Shown: one piece after another, positions 218-8,473 of the stretch
How positions within the stretch are numbered: position 1 is the stretch's first letter
Layout: each line of letters begins with the position of its first letter
Assembly: GCA_963716695.1 (NCBI GenBank)
Contig: CAVQTT010000024.1
Coordinates: 51,387 to 115,386 of the forward strand
Direction: 5' to 3'
DNA length: 64,000 nt
DNA from: an uncultured Chloroflexia bacterium
GTDB lineage: Bacteria; Chloroflexota; Anaerolineae; Anaerolineales; UBA11858
Made by a program: the position numbers and the translations under genes
Notes under the pieces: generated by a model
What the model was told of the DNA's origin: nothing
Database searches by the model: none
Seen by the model: the letters and a program-made list of their open reading frames with translations, nothing else

Positions 218-454
218 ATGAAATTATCCTCTGAAATAATCCGAAAAATGATGAGCTCCGTGAAATCGACCCGGGATCAGGAACTGACCTGCGGGCATTG
301 TTACGATGAACTCGACCATTTTATTGAAATGAATTTACACGGCAAAAACGCCGCAGAAGCGATGCCCCTGGTTAAAGAACATCTCGACCGCTGTGAGGCC
401 TGTCGGGAAGAGTATGAAGTACTGCTAGAAGCTATCCAAGCCATGTTAAGTTAG
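218..454 (+). CDS. Small soluble zinc-binding anti-sigma factor (ZAS, zf-HC2)
   Basis: HLDRCEAC = HxxxCxxC ZAS motif; RBS AGGAG upstream; follows the ECF sigma gene. Confidence 0.75.
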   Translation: MKLSSEIIRKMMSSVKSTRDQELTCGHCYDELDHFIEMNLHGKNAAEAMPLVKEHLDRCEACREEYEVLLEAIQAMLS

Positions 455-477
455 GAGACCTTACCGGTATAACCACC

Positions 478-672
478 ATGACAGAGATTATCAAAGATAC
501 CTGCATCCACTGCTCCAGAACTGACAGCGAAGTGCCGTTGGTGACTCTCAGATTCCAGGGAGGTGAATTCCAGATCTGCACTGAGCATTTCCCGATCTTG
601 ATCCACCGTCCCCAGGAGCTGACGGGGAAACTTCCCGGGGCTGACCGGCTCACAGCAGCTGATCACGATTAA
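478..672 (+). CDS. Small hypothetical protein with CxxC...CxxH putative metal site
   Basis: CIHC and CTEH motifs; co-oriented, 23 bp after the anti-sigma gene. Confidence 0.55.
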   Translation: MTEIIKDTCIHCSRTDSEVPLVTLRFQGGEFQICTEHFPILIHRPQELTGKLPGADRLTAADHD

Positions 673-737
673 GCTCGGTTTTTCCCTGTTACATCCAATT
701 CTGATTTCCATTTAGCACTGAGCCAGGAGCTGATCCT

Positions 738-1463
738 ATGCGCTTGTTGATTATCGTATCCGGAGATTTCGGATTGAGGAATCTGCACAATATCCAGGCC
801 CATGCCCCCGCTGACTGGGTGATCAACACCTGGCAGGCGCCCAGCATTCTTCCCCGCATGATCGATGACCCGGATGACCATCTCCCGGATTCGTTTCCTG
901 ATACTGATCTGATCCTCTCGTTTGCCGAACTTCCAGGTGTCGCAGAACTGCTGCCAGAAATCGCCAAGTCAAGCGGTGCAAAAGCCGTTGTTGTCGCTGT
1001 GAATAACGAAACCTGGCTGCCCCTGGGATTGGCCCGCCAGCTGCGCGGCTGGCTGGAATCCATTAATGTGGCCGCCGCCATGCCAAGACCTCTCTGTTCC
1101 CTGACAGAAAATGATTACGGGGTTACCCGTTATGAGAGGATCGCATTTGACAGCCCGGAAATTGCAGCCTTTGCCCGTTTATTTGGGAAACCGGACCTTA
1201 AGATCGAGGTTGATGAAAATACTCAAACCATCCGATCCGCTGTTGTGGTGAGGGATGCTGTCTGCGGCAATACCCGCCATGTTGCCGAAAAGATCGTTGG
1301 CCTGCCCACCAGCCAGGTGCTTGATAAGGCTGGTTTACTCCACAAACATTTCCCCTGCCTGACCACCATGACCAAACTGGACGACTTCGATCATGAAACC
1401 CTGATGCACGAATCCGGAAACCAGCTGACTTCCAATTTGGCCGCCCAGCTGAACCTGGATTAG
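738..1463 (+). CDS. DUF166 family protein
   Basis: IDDPDDHLP, PRPLCSL, RDAVCG and HKHFPC motifs resemble DUF166; RBS AGGAG upstream. Confidence 0.7.
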   Translation: MRLLIIVSGDFGLRNLHNIQAHAPADWVINTWQAPSILPRMIDDPDDHLPDSFPDTDLILSFAELPGVAELLPEIAKSSGAKAVVVAVNNETWLPLGLARQLRGWLESINVAAAMPRPLCSLTENDYGVTRYERIAFDSPEIAAFARLFGKPDLKIEVDENTQTIRSAVVVRDAVCGNTRHVAEKIVGLPTSQVLDKAGLLHKHFPCLTTMTKLDDFDHETLMHESGNQLTSNLAAQLNLD

Positions 1464-1484
1464 GGAACCTGATCCCTTTTTTTT
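1457..1484 (+). terminator. Intrinsic terminator after DUF166 gene
   Basis: ggattagg-gaa-cctgatcc stem followed by T8. Confidence 0.6.
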
Positions 1485-1589
1485 ATCTAACAATACCCCA
1501 AGACATCCTTTTCGTATGACAGCTGGTCCTAAAAAGATGCCCCCAGTGTGTTGTATAATGCACACAGAAAGTCAACTTGAAGGATTGGC

Positions 1590-3296
1590 ATGCGATCCCT
1601 CCCCCGTTTGCTGTTGATAATTTTTGGGCTGATTTTAGCTGGCGGCATCTGGTTAACCGCCGGCCCGGTCAGCGCCCACCCCCTATCAGATCTCAGCCAA
1701 ACTCCCTCCAGCGAGAGACCCCCACCGCTGCCAACGATCTACCCTCCCTCACAGGCGGGTAACGGCGCCCAGGTCTACTGGGGCATGTGCCAGGACTGCC
1801 ACGGGGACCAGGGGCAGGGCCTGACCGCCGAGTGGCGGGCAGGGTTCGCGCCGGATTACCAGGACTGCTGGGCCTCCGGCTGCCACGGGGAATCGCGGCC
1901 GGACAACAGCTTCCTGATCCCCGCATCCGGCGCGCCCGGCCTGGCAGGGCCAGGCGCCCTGCCTCGTTTCAGAACAGCATTTGAATTGGGCTCCTATATC
2001 CAGGATGCCATGCCGCTCTCCCCTTCCGGGTCAATCACCCCCGATCAGGCCTGGGAATTGACCGCTTACCTGCTCTCGCTCAACAACGCGGATCCACCTC
2101 AAATCCAACTCTCTGGAAAAACCGGGGCTGCGATTCCAATCCATGGAGAAGTCACCCTTCCAGAAAGTGAGCTGCCCGGGGGCCTGCTTTTGGCCCTGGT
2201 ATTATTTCTGGCGGCAGTTGGGGTCGGGAGAGGCCTAACCCAAAAATACCCCTCAAAAACCAAATCCGGGCGGGAAAACTTTTATCATCATTTGCATTCC
2301 CCCAGGATCCCTGTCAAACAGGCTTCTTTCAAATTTACTCTGGGAGCAGGGGGGTTGGCGGTATTCTTCTGCCTGGTGTTATTGATCACCGGCGCCCTGG
2401 AAATGTACTATTATATTCCGACGCCCGAAAAAGCGGCTGAATCTATTCAGGTCATCACCAGCCTGGTTCCATATGGCAATCTGGTCCGCAATCTGCATTA
2501 CTGGTCAGCCCAACTTTTAGTCATCACACTGATGGTGCACCTGCTGAGGGTCATCCTGACCGGTTCCTACGCCCCTCCCCGGAGTTTCAACTACCTGCTG
2601 GGTTTGATCCTGTTGGTAGTGGTTTTGCTGCTCGATTTTACTGGTTATGTGCTACGCTGGGATGAAGGCATCCGTTGGGCCCTGGTAGTCGGCACCAACC
2701 TGTTAAAGACCATCCCGGGAGTAGGAGAAGGCTTGTACAGCTTTCTGATCGGAGGATCAGAACCCGGCCTGGCAGCCTTGACCCGTTTTTACAGCTGGCA
2801 TATCTATGGTTTAACCCTGGGCGCAGCAGGCGTGGGAGCCTGGCATATATTTAAAGTCCGTCGGGACGGAGGTATCAGCAGCCCGCCACCACCCCGGGGC
2901 GAGATCCTGGAAAAAGTTCCCCGGGCTGCCCTGGTCAAAAAAGAAGTATTGGCCATGTTGATCACTGGAGGTATTCTGCTGCTGCTATCCATGATCATTC
3001 CCGCACCGATCGCAGGGCCGATCACAGATGGTAGGGGAATGATCGGGGATTCGCAGGCTCCCTGGTTTTTCATCTGGATCCAACAAACATTAAAATGGGG
3101 TGATCCATTCTGGTGGGGAATTGGCCTGCCCTTGTTCTTGGTGCTGATCCTGGGTCTGCTCCCCTATATTCTGCCCAATGCCAGACCTGAAGAGCTGGGA
3201 AGCTGGTTTCCATCCGGTAATCGGGCCGGCCAGATCCTGGGAAGCCTGATCATCGGGTTGATTTTTTTTCTGACCATTCTGGGTTGGGTCCGGTAG
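1590..3296 (+). CDS. Cytochrome c domain fused to cytochrome b (bc/b6-type, including a subunit IV-like C-terminus)
   Basis: Signal peptide; CQDCH and CWASGCH; cytochrome b His pairs RNLHYW..VHLLR and SWHIY..WHIFK; FTGYVLRWD; APWFF at the PEWY position. Confidence 0.85.
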
Positions 3297-3306
3297 GTAT
3301 TTGACT

Positions 3307-3738
3307 ATGGCTCAAGATAATAATTTGTCGCGAAGGGGTTTTATCCAGGGGGGGGGTCGGATGCTGTTCTGGCTGGCGGGCGTCCTGGGTTTGGGGGGTT
3401 TGATCCGATATTTCAGCCATCAACCTGAAGCTGGACATCCCAGCAGATTCGATCTCGGACCTCTGGATGAGCTGCCAGGTGAGGGACCGATCCTCTATCC
3501 AAATATCCCCGCTGCTGTTTTCCGGGCAGGGAATGATTTCAGAGCCTTGAGCCTGGTGTGTTCCCATTTAGGCTGCACCCTGGAAGCTGCTGAAAGCGGG
3601 TTCAGCTGTCCCTGCCATGGGTCAAAATTCTCGACTGAGGGCAGGGTGATCAGCGGCCCGGCCCTGGCGGACCTTCCTGATCTGGACCTGGAAATCACTA
3701 CGGATGGCCACTTGATCCTCACCCGGAGAGATAACTAA
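3307..3738 (+). CDS. Rieske [2Fe-2S] protein, Tat-exported
   Basis: SRRGFI twin-arginine signal; CSHLGC and CPCHGSKF Rieske boxes. Confidence 0.92.
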
Positions 3739-3740
3739 CC

Positions 3741-4650
3741 ATGAAACAGCCCTGGAAATCGATCCTGGGAATTCTGGGAGGGATTTTCATCCTGGCCCTT
3801 CTGGCCGGATTGGCCCTTTACGGCCTGGGAGAATACCGCCTGGAAAAGAAGTATTCCTCCGCACCTGTCCTGATATCGATTCCGGCTGACCAGCCAGATC
3901 TCCTGGAAGGGCAGCGGATCTTTCGCTACCGGGGATGTGAGGCCTGCCACGGCGAAGAGCTCCAGGGATTGGTTTACCTCGCTAACCCGGCTGTGGGGCA
4001 GGTGATCACACCCAATCTCACGACCGGCAGGGGAGGGATCGGGGGGGAGCGCACCGATCTCGATCTGGTCCGGGCCGTCAAATACGGACTAAAACCTGAT
4101 GGAACTCCGCTGTTATTTATGCCCTCAACTGAGTTCTATTATCTCTCTGATCCGGATCTGGGCCTGGTTCTGGCTTATATCCGCAGCCTGCCCCCGGTTG
4201 ATAACCAGCCGGCTCCCAGCCAGCTCTCACCGACCGGATTTATCGTCATGAACCTGACCAGGGCGATCACTTTTCTGCCGGCAGAATTGATCCCTATGGA
4301 TCAAGATCCTCCTCAAGCGCCGGATCCGGGATTGACAGTTGAATATGGAGCCTACCTGGCTTTATCCTGTCCGGTTTGTCATGGCCTGGGTTTATCTGGG
4401 GGTGAGATTCCCGGGTTTCCCCTTGAATGGCCGGCAGCCGGCAACCTGACTTCCGGGCCAGGGGGCCGTCTCCCAACCTGGGGAGAAACTGGATTTATTG
4501 AGATCATGCGCCAGGGCGAAAAACACGGCCGGGCCCTGCATCCGGATTATATGCCCTGGACTTCCTACCGGCACATGACCGACCTCGAGCTGGAGAGCAG
4601 TATACCTGTATCTGGTATCGCTCCCCCCCAGTGTTTTTGGGTCCCACTAA
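3741..4650 (+). CDS. Membrane-anchored diheme cytochrome c (apparent +1 frameshift near 4593)
   Basis: CEACH and CPVCH; repeated NLT...MP motifs; removing one base near 4593 gives ...AVYLYLVSLPPSVFGSH* ending at 4650, paralleling AYIRSLPP of the first domain. Confidence 0.8.
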
Positions 4651-4673
4651 ATTCAACTATGCTCTCCTTAAAC

Positions 4674-4702
4674 AAAAAAGGGACACCGTGTTTGGTGTCC
4701 CT
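4674..4702 (-). terminator. Intrinsic terminator between convergent units
   Basis: agggacacc/ggtgtccct inverted repeat with an A6 tract on the left (U-tract on the minus strand). Confidence 0.7.
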
Positions 4703-4873
4703 GGTGGTTATGTGGGGAATTCGTTAGGCTTCCCCCACGACACAGGTCTCGCTCGGATTTCAATGAAGTGCCGGATCACTGGTTACAGCATTACGAAATC
4801 AGATTGAGAGAAGCGCTTAAAGGCAACGGCCTCTCTCGATCATGGGGAATTATTCTAAACCGCTGCCAATCAG

Positions 4874-6829
4874 TCAGGGTGACCGAAACCCGAAATTATC
4901 GAAGCGGACATCGGTTATCTCTGAGCCCGAACCACCTGCGCCAAAACCTACATCTCCCTCGAGGATCTTGAGCGGAGCAGCGGAAAGGATTTGAGTTCCA
5001 TCAACATAAACAGTCAGCTCGGATCCGATGCAATCCAATTGGTAGTGATTCTGACCGGGGATCAGACCTGTTGGGAAGTCCTCGATCAGAATAACCTGTT
5101 CACCTTCAAAGAACGCAGCCACCACCAGCGAGCCATCGCCTTCGATTTCTGCATAGTAGAAGTTGTCGTTATCTTGGTAGCGGCAGATCAGATAGATCCC
5201 TGCGCTTGTCGACCCGGAAACCCGGTCAACATCAACCTCAACCTGCACATCACCGATGATTTGGCCAGACACTGCGGTGAGATGGAGATGCCCAATGCCG
5301 TCCGTGGTGTAAATTGAAGATATATCACCTTCGATATCCAGCTGGACATAGGTCAAAATATTATTGCCCAGAGGCTCGTTGACCTGGAAAATACTGTAGA
5401 GCGTGGTGAAATTGTATCTGCCTGTGAACAAAGATTGTTTGGTAAACTCCAACTGCCACAGACCTCCGGCAATATCGACATTGAACTTGTCCGATTCGGT
5501 ACTGGGAAGCAGATTTTCTATAGTCTCGACGAAGGCTGGCACATCCAGATCCCAGGTCCCGATCAGGCACTCGTCACAGGCGAGTTCCTCATCCGGGATC
5601 ATCGATAATTCGATCGCAAAGTTCCCCCCGCTGGCAGGAGCGCTGGTGAGGAGAACGTAATAGGTCACCGGACCACATCCAGCGATGACTTTTTCGGGCA
5701 GATCGGTCCAGACTGGCAAACCGACATCGAGACGGGCAGCGTCATATCCCTCTGCCGAACCGGTGATAACTCGAGAATTATTATAGGAATGACCCTCTGC
5801 AAATGTTATTTCGTAGCGGGATAAAACAAACGGTTTGGCATCGAGAGTACGGATATTGGCTTCTTTGACAACTATCTTGTGGTCAGCCTGGATATAGGCT
5901 GGCAGGGTCGGGATGGTTTGTTTGGATGTGTCGATAATCGTTTCATCCATCACTGCCCGGCCAAAATCATGAAAGATGGCCTGGATATTGGGATAACTAC
6001 CCAGGGCGGCTGCCTGGGCGGCCACATTCCCCTGGACAGGCATCGCTTTGATAATGTTGAGCACTCCAGCGTCTCCTTGCTGGTTGGCTATGTACTGGAA
6101 GAAGAGGAAGTTATCGTATGCCATTTCGGTCAGCGGCGTATCCGCCGAACGATAAACGAAGCTGGGTGTCCAGTCCCACTCGATATTGATACCTGGGTAG
6201 ACTACATTGCTGAAATAGGTCGCGGTGCCCTCGCCCCACCAATCCTGTACTCCCCAATCTGCGTCAGCTTGGGCAGGGAAGTTCCAGACCTGGTAGCAGT
6301 GGAACATTTCATGGGCGATGGTCTGGAGAAAACGCCCGAATGCCGCGCCGCTGGCTGCAGTTCGGCTGCCCTCGATCGACTGCAATGCCAGGTAGCTTTC
6401 CCCAAATTTTTCGATTTTCACTGCTTCATCATCATACTGGGAGAAATGCCTTTCCTCGTCAGCTACCAGGCCTTCAAAGACCTGTCGAGATCCCGCATCG
6501 TTGTTTGAGGAGCATTCGTTGGCCCAGATATTATAGTCCCTGGCGCTGTCCTCTTCCATCTTCCGGCTCTGCTCGAGCATTATTTTGACATCCTGGACTT
6601 TCTTGACCTCTGCTGCGGCTACCATCTCAACATCACCATTCAAGAAAATGATCCGCTCTGCACAGCGTTCGATATGTGTCATTTCCTCGATCGCGGTTCT
6701 GATGAACAGGGCTGCCAAGAGATCAAATCCCTGATCCTCACAATGGAAGTGAAAATACATGTACTGGTGCACGGCATATAATTCATCCGCGACTGCTTTG
6801 TTCAGCAGTTCAATGCTTTTTTCATACAT
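4874..6829 (-). CDS. bfr: Bacterioferritin (aa 1-~163) fused in frame to a HEXXH gluzincin-like region and a C-terminal beta-sandwich (LamG/DUF1080-like) domain; possibly chimeric
   Basis: DEL, EEMTH, EE and DEERH ferroxidase ligands with heme Met; then AHEMFH...WWGEG; then GIYLICRYQDNDNFYY...VRFDNF; RBS AAGGAG upstream. Confidence 0.65.
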   Translation of the reverse strand: MYEKSIELLNKAVADELYAVHQYMYFHFHCEDQGFDLLAALFIRTAIEEMTHIERCAERIIFLNGDVEMVAAAEVKKVQDVKIMLEQSRKMEEDSARDYNIWANECSSNNDAGSRQVFEGLVADEERHFSQYDDEAVKIEKFGESYLALQSIEGSRTAASGAAFGRFLQTIAHEMFHCYQVWNFPAQADADWGVQDWWGEGTATYFSNVVYPGINIEWDWTPSFVYRSADTPLTEMAYDNFLFFQYIANQQGDAGVLNIIKAMPVQGNVAAQAAALGSYPNIQAIFHDFGRAVMDETIIDTSKQTIPTLPAYIQADHKIVVKEANIRTLDAKPFVLSRYEITFAEGHSYNNSRVITGSAEGYDAARLDVGLPVWTDLPEKVIAGCGPVTYYVLLTSAPASGGNFAIELSMIPDEELACDECLIGTWDLDVPAFVETIENLLPSTESDKFNVDIAGGLWQLEFTKQSLFTGRYNFTTLYSIFQVNEPLGNNILTYVQLDIEGDISSIYTTDGIGHLHLTAVSGQIIGDVQVEVDVDRVSGSTSAGIYLICRYQDNDNFYYAEIEGDGSLVVAAFFEGEQVILIEDFPTGLIPGQNHYQLDCIGSELTVYVDGTQILSAAPLKILEGDVGFGAGGSGSEITDVRFDNFGFRSP

Positions 6830-6925
6830 AGTTTCTCCTTATTTTATCTATAACCTGATTATAACAAATTTTGAGCACTGGTATTTATTGGAGCAGTTGC
6901 TCCCGACCAAAGGCATCCGGAATTC

Positions 6926-7567
6926 TTATCCTGCTAACAAGATCTCCGGTTGGTCCGCGGTTCGCTGGAATTTTTCATAGAATTTTCCGGCGTGTAATCC
7001 GTCCATCACGGCGTGATGGCCCTGGACAGAGAGCGGCATAACGGTCCTCGAACCCACCTGGCGGTACTTCCCCCAGGCAAACCGGGGCACGGAATCAGCC
7101 GGGTTCAACTTCAGGGGATGTGTAAAATCCGTAAAGGACACCCAGGGAATTGAGGTCATAAAAAGCATCCGGTCATCTGGGTATTTTTCCTCGATGGTTG
7201 GCTGGTCCTTCACCCGGGTTATTTCAGCAGCCGCATCTCGGGTGAACGCTCTAAAATCGGGCTGGTAATCGACTGTACAAAAGGTGAACAGCTCATCCCG
7301 ACTCAGGATCGTCGCCGAGGGATGCACGATCTCATGTTCAATGGGGTCTCCCTCCCGAACCCTCTGCCGGAATTCCGGGATTTCATTGGCGGATCGGGCG
7401 ACGAGATACATGATCGCCGCTGTAAAAGATATCCCCTGGGCTTTTACTTGGGGCAGCAGAGCTGTAAGATCAACCTCGGCTGTGAGGCTGAAATAAGGAT
7501 ATTCAAAGTCCTTAAAATACAGGTAGTGTTCCCTGCGGGACCAATTCTCCAGTTGGATCGTTTTCAT
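6926..7567 (-). CDS. cat: Type A chloramphenicol acetyltransferase-like protein
   Basis: WSRREHY, SIPWVSFT, PRFAWGKY and catalytic HHAVMDGLH; start chosen at MKTIQ after GGAGG. Confidence 0.85.
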   Translation of the reverse strand: MKTIQLENWSRREHYLYFKDFEYPYFSLTAEVDLTALLPQVKAQGISFTAAIMYLVARSANEIPEFRQRVREGDPIEHEIVHPSATILSRDELFTFCTVDYQPDFRAFTRDAAAEITRVKDQPTIEEKYPDDRMLFMTSIPWVSFTDFTHPLKLNPADSVPRFAWGKYRQVGSRTVMPLSVQGHHAVMDGLHAGKFYEKFQRTADQPEILLAG

Positions 7568-7633
7568 AACATATCGCCTCCCTGGCCTAACACAATCATA
7601 TCCTTTTTTCTGCCGGAATTGAAACACCAAACC

Positions 7634-7662
7634 AAAAACCCGCCGGGGTAGGAGGCGGGTTT
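7634..7662 (-). terminator. Intrinsic terminator after arsM
   Basis: aaacccgcc/ggcgggttt inverted repeat with A-tract. Confidence 0.6.
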
Positions 7663-7684
7663 GAGATCGGAAACTTGGATATGT

Positions 7685-8473
7685 TTATTTTTGAGCCTCA
7701 ATCGTTGCCGAAAGCACATAATCCTCGATCGGCACTCCGGGGGTCCATTTATTGATGAACTCCCTGCTCTCGTCTTTGGGGTTGATCCGAATTGCTTTAA
7801 AACCAGCCTGTTCCAGGATCCCCCGCAGCTCATCCACCTGGAGTGCGCCAGCTACGCAGGAAGAATACAGGGCGAGATCGGCCTTCATTTCCGGCGGAAG
7901 TTCGACCGAGGCTACCATATCAGAGATTGCCAGACGCCCTCCGGTTTTCAGCACCCGATAGGCCTCATTAAATACTGCCTGTTTGTCCGGGGAAAGGTTG
8001 ATCACGCAGTTGGAGAGGATCACATCGATTGTATGATCATCAACAGGAAGTTCTTCAATCTGTCCTAAACGAAATTCAACATTTTCAAAAGAACCCTTGG
8101 CTGCATTTTCCTCCGCCCGGTGGATCATGTCCGGAGTCATATCCACGCCAATCACCTTTCCGGAGGGGCCGATCTGCCTGGCTGCCAGGAAGCTATCAAA
8201 CCCCGCTCCACTGCCCAGGTCAAGCACAACCTCTCCCTCTTTTAGATCTGCAATGGCCTGGGGATTGCCGCAGCCCAGGCCCATATTTGCTCCAACAGGC
8301 ACACTGGCCAATTCCTGGTCTGAATAGCCCATCAGGGAAGATTGTTTTTCCGGTTGGATCAATTCAAAGGGGTCGATCAGATCGCCCCCGCAGCAGGATG
8401 TTCCCTCCCGGGCAATATCTCCATATCTGGTCTTGACTGCTTCGCGAATTTCGTCCTCTCGGGGACTGCTCAT
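7685..8473 (-). CDS. arsM: Arsenite S-adenosylmethionine methyltransferase
   Basis: N-terminal CC, GLGCGNP, VLDLGSGAGFD, SNCVINL and SCVAGA motifs. Confidence 0.9.
   Translation of the reverse strand: MSSPREDEIREAVKTRYGDIAREGTSCCGGDLIDPFELIQPEKQSSLMGYSDQELASVPVGANMGLGCGNPQAIADLKEGEVVLDLGSGAGFDSFLAARQIGPSGKVIGVDMTPDMIHRAEENAAKGSFENVEFRLGQIEELPVDDHTIDVILSNCVINLSPDKQAVFNEAYRVLKTGGRLAISDMVASVELPPEMKADLALYSSCVAGALQVDELRGILEQAGFKAIRINPKDESREFINKWTPGVPIEDYVLSATIEAQK

What the first reader, a model, noticed from the sequence alone, without database searches (positions are those of the whole stretch)
4874..6829. Bacterioferritin fused in frame to a zinc-peptidase-like region and a glycan-binding-type beta-sandwich
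Seen: a complete Bfr (ferroxidase ligands and heme Met) runs without stop or RBS into AHEMFH..WWGEG (junction ~6340) and then into a LamG/DUF1080-like domain (junction ~5255). Known: Bfr is a ~160-aa 24-mer with C-termini at the four-fold axes, and zincins need an N-terminal subdomain before HEXXH. Here HEXXH starts about 10 aa after the junction and the last domain also looks N-truncated. Inference: either a new ferritin cage displaying protease/lectin modules, or a mosaic made by recombination or misassembly that stayed in frame twice. I cannot distinguish these from the sequence.
Basis: partly seen in the sequence, partly recalled or inferred. Interest (0 to 1): 0.7.

Follow-up and report, generated by a model that had tools for sequence, protein, structure and literature searches.

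The report
Bacterioferritin gene carrying captured gene fragment
An ordinary iron-storage (bacterioferritin) gene in one uncultured Anaerolineales strain has taken up, two codons before its stop, a 1.6-kb scrap of the species' own peptidase-lipoprotein gene pair that happens to stay in frame, so the "three-domain fusion" is a one-off mosaic and not a new kind of protein cage.

Summary
It is a mosaic. Residues 1-163 are identical to a stand-alone 165-aa bacterioferritin of conspecific strains. A 1608-bp block (4733-6340) follows. Contigs of ~96%-identical strains from two studies join straight across this block. The orphaned last bfr codons (GAA GCC TAA) and the bfr terminator lie directly after it.

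The block derives from a two-gene locus of the same species:
- codons 309-660 of a 730-aa DUF6055/HExxH lipoprotein gene (96.6% identical);
- codons 90-224 of the neighbouring 224-aa CBM66-like lipoprotein gene (92.6% identical), plus 141 bp of its 3' flank.

The two pieces are joined in frame by an internal deletion. The peptidase piece starts one residue before the active-site helix and lacks the whole N-terminal beta-sheet subdomain. The beta-sandwich piece lacks its first 3 of 14 strands.

The fused protein is on record from one contig among about 15 billion proteins. I found no transposon ends and no Ku or reverse transcriptase.

Most likely this is a recent, strain-specific illegitimate insertion that gives bfr a non-functional tail. 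Interest is low.

The parts
6835..6840 (-). Shine-Dalgarno-like AAGGAG ahead of the bfr ATG (6829-6827)
   Evidence: Read directly from the sequence.
6341..6829 (-). Native bfr, codons 1-163 of 165
   Evidence: 163 of 163 residues are identical to the stand-alone 165-aa Bfr P0187. Pfam Ferritin E 5.8e-26. Congeners carry stand-alone ORFs whose translations run 160-165 aa, 67-85% identical. DNA is collinear with congeners from about 6364 upward.
4733..6340 (-). Inserted block of 1608 bp (536 codons), absent from close strains
   Evidence: Contigs of a ~96%-identical strain in runs X1 and X2 (two studies) join 4714 to 6341 with 18 letters in between. The last 10 of those letters equal window 4723-4732, so the true gap is 4733-6340. 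The congener G007 has bfr and the cytochrome c gene 95 bp apart by ORF coordinates, with the blastn matches 191 bp apart. There is no second copy in the genome.
5285..6340 (-). Fragment A: codons 309-660 of the species' 730-aa DUF6055/MXAN_6640-type HExxH lipoprotein gene. It holds the active-site helix, the helical subdomain, a beta-sandwich and the first part of the C-terminal beta-barrel.
   Evidence: 340 of 352 residues are identical to P0002 residues 309-660, with no similarity on either side. Domain map from the AlphaFold model of P0002. Weak HMM hits: PF19527 and NF045524.
5282..5284 (-). Junction codon CAT (His516), which belongs to neither parent; the site of the internal in-frame deletion
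   Evidence: P0002 continues QTSLL, P0226 precedes with YIF, and the window has H.
4874..5281 (-). Fragment B: codons 90-224 plus the stop of the neighbouring 224-aa CBM66/DUF1080-like lipoprotein gene
   Evidence: 125 of 135 residues are identical to P0226 residues 90-224. The PF06439 match covers profile positions 51-183 of 187 only. The first 3 of 14 strands are missing relative to the P0037 model.
4733..4873 (-). 141 bp of non-coding 3' flank carried in with fragment B
   Evidence: It lies inside the block skipped by the relatives' contigs. It has no similarity to the flank of the more distant locus L035.
4724..4732 (-). Orphaned native bfr codons 164-165 and stop (GAA GCC TAA)
   Evidence: Same letters as in the relatives' contigs directly after codon 163 (table 5c). 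P0187 ends ...GAAEA.
4679..4702 (-). Native bfr terminator-like hairpin with a T-run, between the convergent bfr and cytochrome c genes
   Evidence: Pattern scan: 9-pair stem, 6 G-C pairs, followed by TTTTTTGTTTA.
3741..4727 (+). Convergent neighbour: a cytochrome c gene with a +1 frameshift near 4597, about 135 bp from the insertion
   Evidence: The window ORF is 328 aa and the conspecific proteins are 302 aa. The conspecific C-terminus RAVYLYLVSLPPSVF is read in the next frame of the window.

Best explanation
This is a strain-specific structural variant of an ordinary bacterioferritin gene.

A 1608-bp piece of DNA was inserted cleanly between codons 163 and 164 of the 165-codon bfr. I found no target duplication, no terminal repeats and no loss of host bases.

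The piece comes from a two-gene accessory locus of the same species. That locus encodes a secreted gluzincin-like HExxH lipoprotein, followed by a small CBM66-like lipoprotein. The piece is truncated at its 5' end at codon 309 of the first gene. It also carries an internal deletion that joins codon 660 of the first gene to codon 90 of the second.

Both joints happen to keep the reading frame. Translation from the bfr start therefore runs on for 488 extra residues.

Steps that are shown: the composition of the mosaic, the empty site in close strains, and the origin of both pieces in neighbouring genes of the lineage.

Steps that are inferred:
- The DNA joint is biological. I take it to come from homology-independent (illegitimate) end joining or template switching; the mechanism is not resolved.
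- The event is recent.
- The tail has no function. It lacks the signal/lipobox region, the substrate-binding beta-sheet subdomain of the peptidase, half of the C-terminal barrel and three strands of the sandwich.
- The tail probably prevents normal 24-mer closure, because Bfr C-termini point into an 8-nm cavity.
For: - Residues 1-163 match the stand-alone Bfr P0187 at 163 of 163 positions. P0187 sits in the same 90% cluster and is on record from 3 contigs, whereas the fused protein is on record from 1 contig.
- Contigs in runs X1 and X2 (two studies, about 96% identical: 28 other letters in 657) join across the block. The host sequence resumes at the very next codon, GAA GCC TAA. The native terminator lies just beyond.
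- In the 24 congeners of the 40 relatives searched, 16 have an intact stand-alone bfr and 2 a bfr in two pieces; none has a fused one. G007 shows the same gene order (methyltransferase, CAT, bfr, cytochrome c, Rieske) without the block.
- Fragment A matches P0002 residues 309-660 at 340 of 352 positions. Fragment B matches P0226 residues 90-224 at 125 of 135 positions.
- P0002 and P0226 both list a longest contig of 1,027,383 bp (ENA). The donor locus therefore belongs to the same species-level lineage.
- The two gene types are neighbours elsewhere. In L035 the genes at 442..2658 and 2701..3402 lie 42 bp apart. The NCBI locus tags E4G99_00675 and E4G99_00680 sit on one 16,945-bp contig. P0004 and P0228 sit on one 17,226-bp contig.
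- GC content and tetranucleotide make-up of the block are ordinary for this genome (63rd percentile).
- The truncation points fall inside folds.
- The tail is 53.7 kDa, about 65 nm3. Twenty-four tails need about 1558 nm3, against a cavity of about 268 nm3. The C-terminus is internal (PMC10301331, passages).
- A second ferritin-family gene exists at C1:127474-127884, so losing Bfr function would be tolerable.
Against: - No raw reads of the source sample were available. No served run holds more than 13% of the sampled words of 4600-7000, so the joints rest on a single public assembly.
- The genome is a 24-contig MAG with 6.7% estimated contamination.
- Staying in frame and in sense orientation at two joints has a chance of only about 1 in 18 if nothing selects for it. 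Ascertainment explains part of this, because only an open frame would have been flagged.
- I found no Ku (PF02735) and no reverse transcriptase (PF00078) in the 91%-complete genome, so no dedicated joining machinery can be named.
- Fragment B is less similar to its conspecific counterpart (92.6%) than the five other proteins compared (95-99%).
- An 8-nt patch (4715-4722) right after the orphaned stop also differs from the relatives, and a frameshift lies 135 bp away. The locus therefore carries more than one lesion, which could also point to a local assembly problem.
Confidence: 0.72

Rival explanations
1. Assembly or polishing artefact: the block was placed into bfr by the assembler, for example from reads of a co-occurring conspecific strain that carries the intact two-gene locus, and no such DNA molecule exists.
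For: - The fusion is on record from a single contig of a single MAG.
- The MAG has 6.7% estimated contamination.
- Conspecific strains with the intact donor locus exist.
- A frameshift and an 8-nt divergent patch lie within 135 bp of the block.
- Another MAG carries a different chimeric ORF that starts with 47 residues of a Bfr (P0189).
Against: - The host sequence is perfectly continuous across the block, from codon 163 to codon 164 with no base lost or repeated. A random chimeric join would not give this.
- No shared sequence is visible at junction 1 that a k-mer graph could mis-thread. P0002 reads ...GAPED before FGRF, and Bfr reads ...ASGAA.
- Three joints would all have to be artefacts.
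- The assembly is otherwise clean. Six of six other window proteins compared have the same length as their conspecific counterparts.
Confidence: 0.12
2. Decay in place: the whole two-gene locus once sat downstream of bfr in this lineage. Two later deletions (bfr codon 164 to peptidase codon 308, and peptidase codon 661 to lipoprotein codon 89) left the present remnant.
For: - The donor locus belongs to the same species and lies on the same long contig as orthologues of window genes.
- The genome keeps no trace of the missing parts (P0002 1-308 and 662-730, P0037 1-92) at tblastn E <= 1. The locus was therefore lost and not merely copied.
Against: - The last bfr codons and stop (GAAGCCTAA) lie after the block, not before it. 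The original locus would have had to enter inside bfr, and the first deletion would have had to start exactly at that old boundary.
- Strains with an empty site and an identical Bfr are on record from several contigs.
- I could not read the position of P0002 relative to bfr on the 1,027,383-bp contig.
Confidence: 0.1
3. A functional new protein: a Bfr scaffold that carries a peptidase-derived and a glycan-binding-type module, either as a cage with external tails or as a smaller oligomer.
For: - The frame is open over 651 codons with a good ribosome-binding site.
- HExxH and the downstream Glu are kept.
- The Bfr ligands are intact.
- Both joints are in frame.
Against: - Both added domains are cut inside their predicted folds.
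- The export signal of both parent lipoproteins is absent.
- None of the 35 or 2 long homologues found has this architecture.
- Identical Bfr without the tail occurs in conspecific strains.
- The Bfr C-terminus is internal, and the 24 tails exceed the cavity about six-fold.
Confidence: 0.04

Closest known systems
Stand-alone bacterioferritin (e.g. the solved Bfr 1nf4; conspecific P0187, 165 aa)
   Same: Residues 1-163 match P0187 at 163 of 163 positions. The ferritin-like domain, the ferroxidase-type Glu/His residues and the Met at the position of the heme ligand are present.
   Different: The last two residues are replaced by a 488-residue tail. The NCBIfam bfr equivalog cut-off is not reached (61.6 against 125.55 bits).
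DUF6055 (PF19527) / MXAN_6640-type HExxH putative metalloproteases: about 730-aa Anaerolineales lipoproteins such as P0002 and P0003
   Same: Fragment A is 96.6% identical to P0002 residues 309-660. It keeps HExxH and the invariant WWGEG Glu. The P0002 model resembles gluzincins weakly: M1 4fgm, M9 collagenase H 4arf and M30 lugdulysin 7bb8, with E 1e-3 to 9e-3 and probability 0.94-0.99.
   Different: The leader, the helical N-domain, the whole beta-sheet subdomain (residues 1-308) and the last 70 residues of the C-terminal barrel are missing.
CBM66 / DUF1080 (PF06439) concanavalin-like beta-sandwich; small lipoproteins P0226 and P0037
   Same: Fragment B is 92.6% identical to P0226 residues 90-224. 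The model of the full-length relative P0037 matches CBM66 4b1m (E 3e-10, target TM 0.82).
   Different: The lipoprotein leader and the first 3 of 14 strands are absent. I found no evidence of glycan binding for this family.
Engineered C-terminal fusions to Bfr and ferritins
   Same: A peptide is appended to the Bfr C-terminus.
   Different: Engineered tags are short and sit inside the 8-nm cavity (PMC10301331, passages read). Here the tail is 53.7 kDa per subunit and consists of broken domains.
Capture of chromosomal DNA fragments at repaired breaks, or chimeric genes made by illegitimate recombination (general knowledge, recalled; no paper read)
   Same: A clean insertion without repeats or a transposase, made of a truncated piece of another locus.
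   Different: The joining pathway is unknown, and neither Ku nor reverse transcriptase was found in the genome.

Membership tests
Bacterioferritin (Bfr) | Ferritin-like four-helix-bundle domain | tested here: met
   PF00210 covers residues 6-140, 91.5 bits against a cut-off of 24.5. 46 solved Bfr/Dps-like sequences match at E <= 1e-5; the best is 1nf4.
Bacterioferritin (Bfr) | NCBIfam equivalog model TIGR00754 above its cut-off | tested here: not met
   61.6 bits against a cut-off of 125.55. This is a divergent Bfr-type ferritin.
Bacterioferritin (Bfr) | Di-iron ferroxidase ligands (Glu, Glu, His, Glu, Glu, His) and the heme-ligand Met next to the second Glu | tested here: met
   E16, E49, M50, H52, E92, E125/E126 and H128 are present and align with the E..EM.H..E..E..H pattern of 1nf4. 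Which residues are ligands in solved Bfr is recalled, not taken from a call.
Bacterioferritin (Bfr) | Subunit of about 155-180 aa that closes into a 24-mer with the C-terminus inside | tested here: not met
   The ORF is 651 aa. The 24 tails need about 1558 nm3 against a cavity of about 268 nm3. The C-terminus is internal according to PMC10301331. Assembly itself cannot be tested with these tools.
Zincin / gluzincin metallopeptidase (DUF6055, MXAN_6640 HExxH family) | HExxH on the active-site helix plus a downstream Glu | tested here: met
   H173, E174, H177 and E200 are present. The corresponding P0002 columns H318, E319, H322 and E345 are invariant in 32 family members. The ligand role of the Glu is inferred.
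Zincin / gluzincin metallopeptidase (DUF6055, MXAN_6640 HExxH family) | N-terminal beta-sheet subdomain before the active-site helix | tested here: not met
   The fragment starts at P0002 residue 309. The strands at 204-292 of the model are absent.
Zincin / gluzincin metallopeptidase (DUF6055, MXAN_6640 HExxH family) | Family HMMs above their curated cut-offs | tested here: not met
   PF19527 scores 21.7 against 27 and covers profile positions 129-220 of 417. NF045524 scores 37.6 against 140 and covers profile positions 114-209 of 290.
Zincin / gluzincin metallopeptidase (DUF6055, MXAN_6640 HExxH family) | N-terminal leader with a lipobox-type Cys, as in full-length members | tested here: not met
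   Full-length relatives start with a hydrophobic leader ending in A-C. The fused ORF starts with Bfr.
Concanavalin-like beta-sandwich (PF06439 DUF1080 / CBM66-like) | Complete sandwich | tested here: not met
   The fragment corresponds to P0226 residues 90-224. Strands 47-51, 68-72 and 75-81 of the P0037 model are missing. The PF06439 match covers profile positions 51-183 of 187 at 16.5 bits, below the cut-off of 26.8.
Insertion sequence / transposon | Terminal inverted repeats, target-site duplication, transposase | tested here: not met
   No repeat pair lies at 4733 and 6340 among the 20 direct-repeat families and 25 inverted-repeat pairs listed. No transposase domain was found in the ORF.

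The most novel reading that the evidence does not exclude
The chimeric ORF is expressed and retained as a newborn gene. The Bfr dimer or a partial shell serves as an oligomerisation scaffold, with the C-terminal helix flipped outward. It would present a metal-binding HExxH helical module and a beta-rich module in the cytoplasm. This would be a natural example of a new multi-domain protein born from captured gene fragments in an uncultured bacterium.
Probability: 0.04. Interest if true: 0.6.

Novelty: new member of a known kind. Interest (0 to 1): 0.2.

Why it matters
This matters mainly as a caution. A striking domain architecture in a single metagenome-assembled genome can be a one-off in-frame insertion, and here each piece could be traced to its parent gene.

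Two small positive points follow:
- It is a well-resolved natural example of a clean, repeat-free capture of a fragment of the species' own DNA, with an empty site in sister strains.
- It draws attention to a conserved and uncharacterised Anaerolineales gene pair. One gene encodes a 730-aa gluzincin-like HExxH lipoprotein, and the other a CBM66-like lipoprotein. The peptidase has no solved close structural relative (best Foldseek E 1e-3).

Tried and rejected
- Raw-read test. The look-up of sequencing runs listed 9 runs, none holding more than 0.13 of the sampled words. The four runs laid are contigs, not reads, so the joints could not be tested in the source sample. Apart from the two contigs that join across the block and one 35-nt piece in X2, nothing in those runs covered 4762-6300. 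This shows nothing by itself.
- A degenerate DNA pattern across junction 1 gave 0 matches in metagenome contigs.
- A peptide-pattern scan across junction 2 in the same collection returned one locus, L035. It does not span the junction, but it showed the two gene types side by side.
- The search for related loci with P0002 in genome contigs found no close relative among 17 loci (best 49%). The family-wide search found at best 34% among the other 66 genomes (67 searched, own included). I could therefore not read the donor's DNA or measure dN/dS.
- The idea that the block is foreign DNA from another organism was dropped once the donor contig proved conspecific. Composition is ordinary.
- Transposon, Ku-dependent end joining and retro-insertion of an mRNA copy: no terminal repeats, no Ku and no reverse transcriptase in a 91%-complete genome.
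- Only 1 of 21 fetched loci with a DUF6055-type match also holds the lipoprotein gene, but most of those are distant relatives.
- An alignment meant for folding the whole chimera (A4) mis-registered the third segment. I did not fold the chimera and folded the two intact parents instead.
- Sequence search of the tail against solved structures gave nothing meaningful (best E 0.61).
- A literature search for DUF6055, MXAN_6640 and PF19527 found one paper with a passing mention (listing only).
- The search of earlier findings was not open.
Full report
**Observation**

The window holds an uninterrupted 651-codon ORF on the minus strand, 6829 to 4874. AAGGAG precedes its ATG at 6840-6835.

Pfam finds a Ferritin domain at residues 6-140 (E 5.8e-26). 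It also finds a weak DUF6055 match at 168-254 that covers only profile positions 129-220 of 417. NCBIfam gives bfr (TIGR00754) at 61.6 bits, below its cut-off of 125.55. It gives the MXAN_6640 HExxH model at 170-266, covering profile positions 114-209 of 290.

The first 163 residues match 46 solved bacterioferritin-type sequences, with 1nf4 the best at E 1.3e-21. The Glu/His pattern and the Met are present at E16, E49, M50, H52, E92, E125/E126 and H128. HEMFH is 173-177, and the Glu of WWGEG is E200.

**Segment 1 is the organism's ordinary bfr**

- Of the 24 congeners among the 40 relatives searched, 16 carry an intact stand-alone Bfr ORF, 67-85% identical over residues 1 to about 163, and 2 more carry one in two pieces. 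The Bfr translations read from the fetched loci run 160-165 aa.
- The exact look-up puts the 651-aa protein in a 90% cluster with two stand-alone proteins. P0187 (165 aa, 3 contigs) is identical at 163 of 163 positions and then ends in EA. P0186 has 167 aa. The fused form is on record from one contig, the 606,432-bp contig of this genome.
- DNA of congeners is collinear with the window from about 6364 to 8361.
- In G007 the order is methyltransferase, CAT-like gene, bfr, then the convergent cytochrome c and Rieske genes. Only 95 bp separate the ORFs of bfr and the cytochrome c gene there.

**The empty site**

Contigs of a strain about 96% identical were laid on the window. They differ by 28 letters in 657. 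They come from runs X1 and X2, which belong to two studies.

These contigs join 4714 to 6341 with 18 letters in between (tables 5, 5c and 8). The last 10 of those 18 letters are identical to window 4723-4732. On the coding strand they read GAAGCCTAAC, which is bfr codons 164 and 165 plus the stop.

The extra DNA is therefore 4733-6340, which is 1608 bp or 536 codons. It sits exactly between codons 163 and 164, and no host base is lost or repeated. The terminator-like hairpin of bfr follows at 4702-4679.

An ENA contig of 19,636 bp carries P0187 together with close counterparts of three other window proteins. It is a further record of the uninterrupted gene.

**What the block is made of**

- Residues 164-515 match P0002 residues 309-660 at 340 of 352 positions. 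P0002 is a 730-aa protein. There is no similarity on either side.
- Residues 517-651 match P0226 residues 90-224 at 125 of 135 positions. P0226 is a 224-aa lipoprotein.
- His516 (codon 5284-5282) belongs to neither parent.
- Behind the stop codon, 141 bp of flank (4873-4733) came along.

All 35 long homologues of the whole ORF are DUF6055-type proteins without a ferritin domain. The highest coverage of the query is 75%. A search with the Bfr part among proteins of 358-1140 aa gave two hits. One is a frameshift-type read-through (P0188). The other is an unrelated chimera that shares only 47 residues (P0189).

**The two parents are neighbouring genes of the same species**

P0002 and P0226 both list a longest contig of 1,027,383 bp from ENA. 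They are 95.1-99.1% identical to window proteins encoded at 17.6-56 kb. That these are one and the same contig is my inference from the equal length and source.

Adjacency of the two gene types is seen elsewhere:
- Directly in L035, where the 738-aa gene at 442..2658 is followed 42 bp later by the 233-aa gene at 2701..3402.
- In consecutive NCBI locus tags E4G99_00675 and E4G99_00680 on a 16,945-bp contig.
- In P0004 and P0228, which share a 17,226-bp contig.

Against this, only 1 of 21 fetched DUF6055-type loci holds the lipoprotein gene. Most of those loci are 24-49% relatives.

The second 'junction' is therefore an internal deletion. It removed peptidase codons 661-730, the spacer and lipoprotein codons 1-89.

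The block's GC content (0.512 against 0.506 for the genome) and its tetranucleotide profile (63rd percentile of 600 genome windows) are ordinary.

The genome holds no second copy of the block. It also holds no trace of the missing parts at tblastn E <= 1.

**Where the cuts fall in the folds**

The AlphaFold model of P0002 was built from 32 sequences (mean pLDDT 82.5). It shows:
- a disordered leader at 1-68;
- a helical domain at 78-192;
- a beta-sheet subdomain at 204-302;
- the active-site helix at 310-328, with HExxH at 318-322;
- a helical subdomain up to 440;
- a beta-sandwich at 463-560;
- a beta-barrel at 569-729.

The window fragment starts at residue 309 and ends at 660. It therefore lacks the leader, the N-domain, the entire sheet subdomain and the last part of the barrel.

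Foldseek finds only weak gluzincin matches for this model: M1 4fgm, M9 collagenase H 4arf and M30 lugdulysin 7bb8. Their E-values run from 1e-3 to 9e-3.

The model of P0037, a homologue of P0226, was built from 40 sequences (pLDDT 89.0). It is a 14-strand sandwich spanning residues 47-222, and its closest solved relative is CBM66 4b1m (E 3e-10). The window fragment lacks the first three strands.

**How it probably arose and what it does**

I found no terminal repeats or duplication at the ends of the block and no transposase domain. The 91%-complete genome shows no Ku and no reverse transcriptase. The joints show no visible microhomology on the host side.

I therefore infer a homology-independent insertion of a fragment of the lineage's own DNA. 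The fragment came either from within the cell or from a conspecific.

A +1 frameshift in the convergent cytochrome c gene lies only about 135 bp away. The window ORF is 328 aa against 302 aa in conspecifics. The 8 bases at 4715-4722 also differ from the relatives. Together these suggest either one untidy repair episode or a locally troubled assembly.

The product would be Bfr with a 53.7-kDa tail of broken, leaderless domains. The Bfr C-terminus lies on the inner surface of a cage with an 8-nm cavity (PMC10301331, passages read). Twenty-four tails need about 1558 nm3, and the cavity offers about 268 nm3.

A second ferritin-family gene, at C1:127474-127884, could cover for a damaged Bfr.

**Artefact or real**

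The exact resumption of the host sequence speaks against a chimeric join. So does the lack of shared sequence at junction 1, and so does the otherwise clean assembly. Six of six other window proteins compared have the same length as their conspecific counterparts.

However, no read of the source sample could be laid. The fusion therefore rests on one assembly.

My odds are:
- 0.72 for a real, recent and functionless insertion;
- 0.12 for an artefact;
- 0.10 for decay in place of a locus once whole beside bfr;
- 0.04 for a functional novelty.

**Verdict**

The 'new ferritin cage' reading is not supported, and the 'mosaic by recombination' reading is supported and now resolved to its parent genes. 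This is an ordinary kind of event in an unusually clear instance, and its interest is low.

Noticed in passing
window 3741-4727 (+), frameshift near 4597: The cytochrome c gene convergent to bfr reads 328 aa, whereas conspecific proteins (P0233, P0234) have 302 aa. Their C-terminus RAVYLYLVSLPPSVF appears in the +1 frame of the window, so one extra base sits after ...TDLEL. This is a second lesion about 135 bp from the insertion.
   Followed up: yes
window 4715-4722: The eight bases directly after the orphaned bfr stop (GAATTCCC on the coding strand) match the otherwise ~96%-identical relatives' contigs at only 3 of 8 positions (relatives: TAACCGCT). This may be part of the same repair scar.
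   Followed up: partly
P0002/P0226; L035 442-3402; NCBI tags E4G99_00675/00680: A conserved Anaerolineales gene pair. The first gene encodes a ~730-aa lipoprotein with a gluzincin-like HExxH...WWGEG core, a beta-sandwich and a C-terminal barrel. The second encodes a ~225-aa CBM66-like lipoprotein. The peptidase folds confidently (pLDDT 82.5) but has no solved relative better than Foldseek E 1e-3, so it may be an undescribed peptidase family. Some members (P0023, P0024, P0026, P0027) carry the sandwich domain fused at their own C-terminus.
   Followed up: partly
P0189 (791 aa, NCBI, contig of 14,025 bp): Another MAG encodes a protein whose first 47 residues are a congeneric Bfr N-terminus (89% identical), followed by 744 unrelated residues. 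This is a second, different chimeric ORF involving this bfr, either real or a misassembly.
   Followed up: no
ENA contig of 1,027,383 bp (proteins P0202, P0209, P0218): The conspecific long contig yields many shortened proteins (123, 219 and 100 aa against 389, 556 and 418 aa in the window). This looks like a frameshift-rich long-read assembly. Its own Bfr does not appear in the 90% cluster.
   Followed up: no
G000 C1:127474-127884 (+): A second ferritin-family gene (PF00210, E 2.6e-41, open frame of 174 aa) lies elsewhere in the genome.
   Followed up: no
window 6926-7630 (-) and 7685-8473 (-): Upstream of bfr lie a chloramphenicol-acetyltransferase-family gene (PF00302, E 1.9e-39) and a methyltransferase. 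A JGI source names a 90%-cluster member of the methyltransferase arsenite methyltransferase. Both genes are syntenic in congeners.
   Followed up: no
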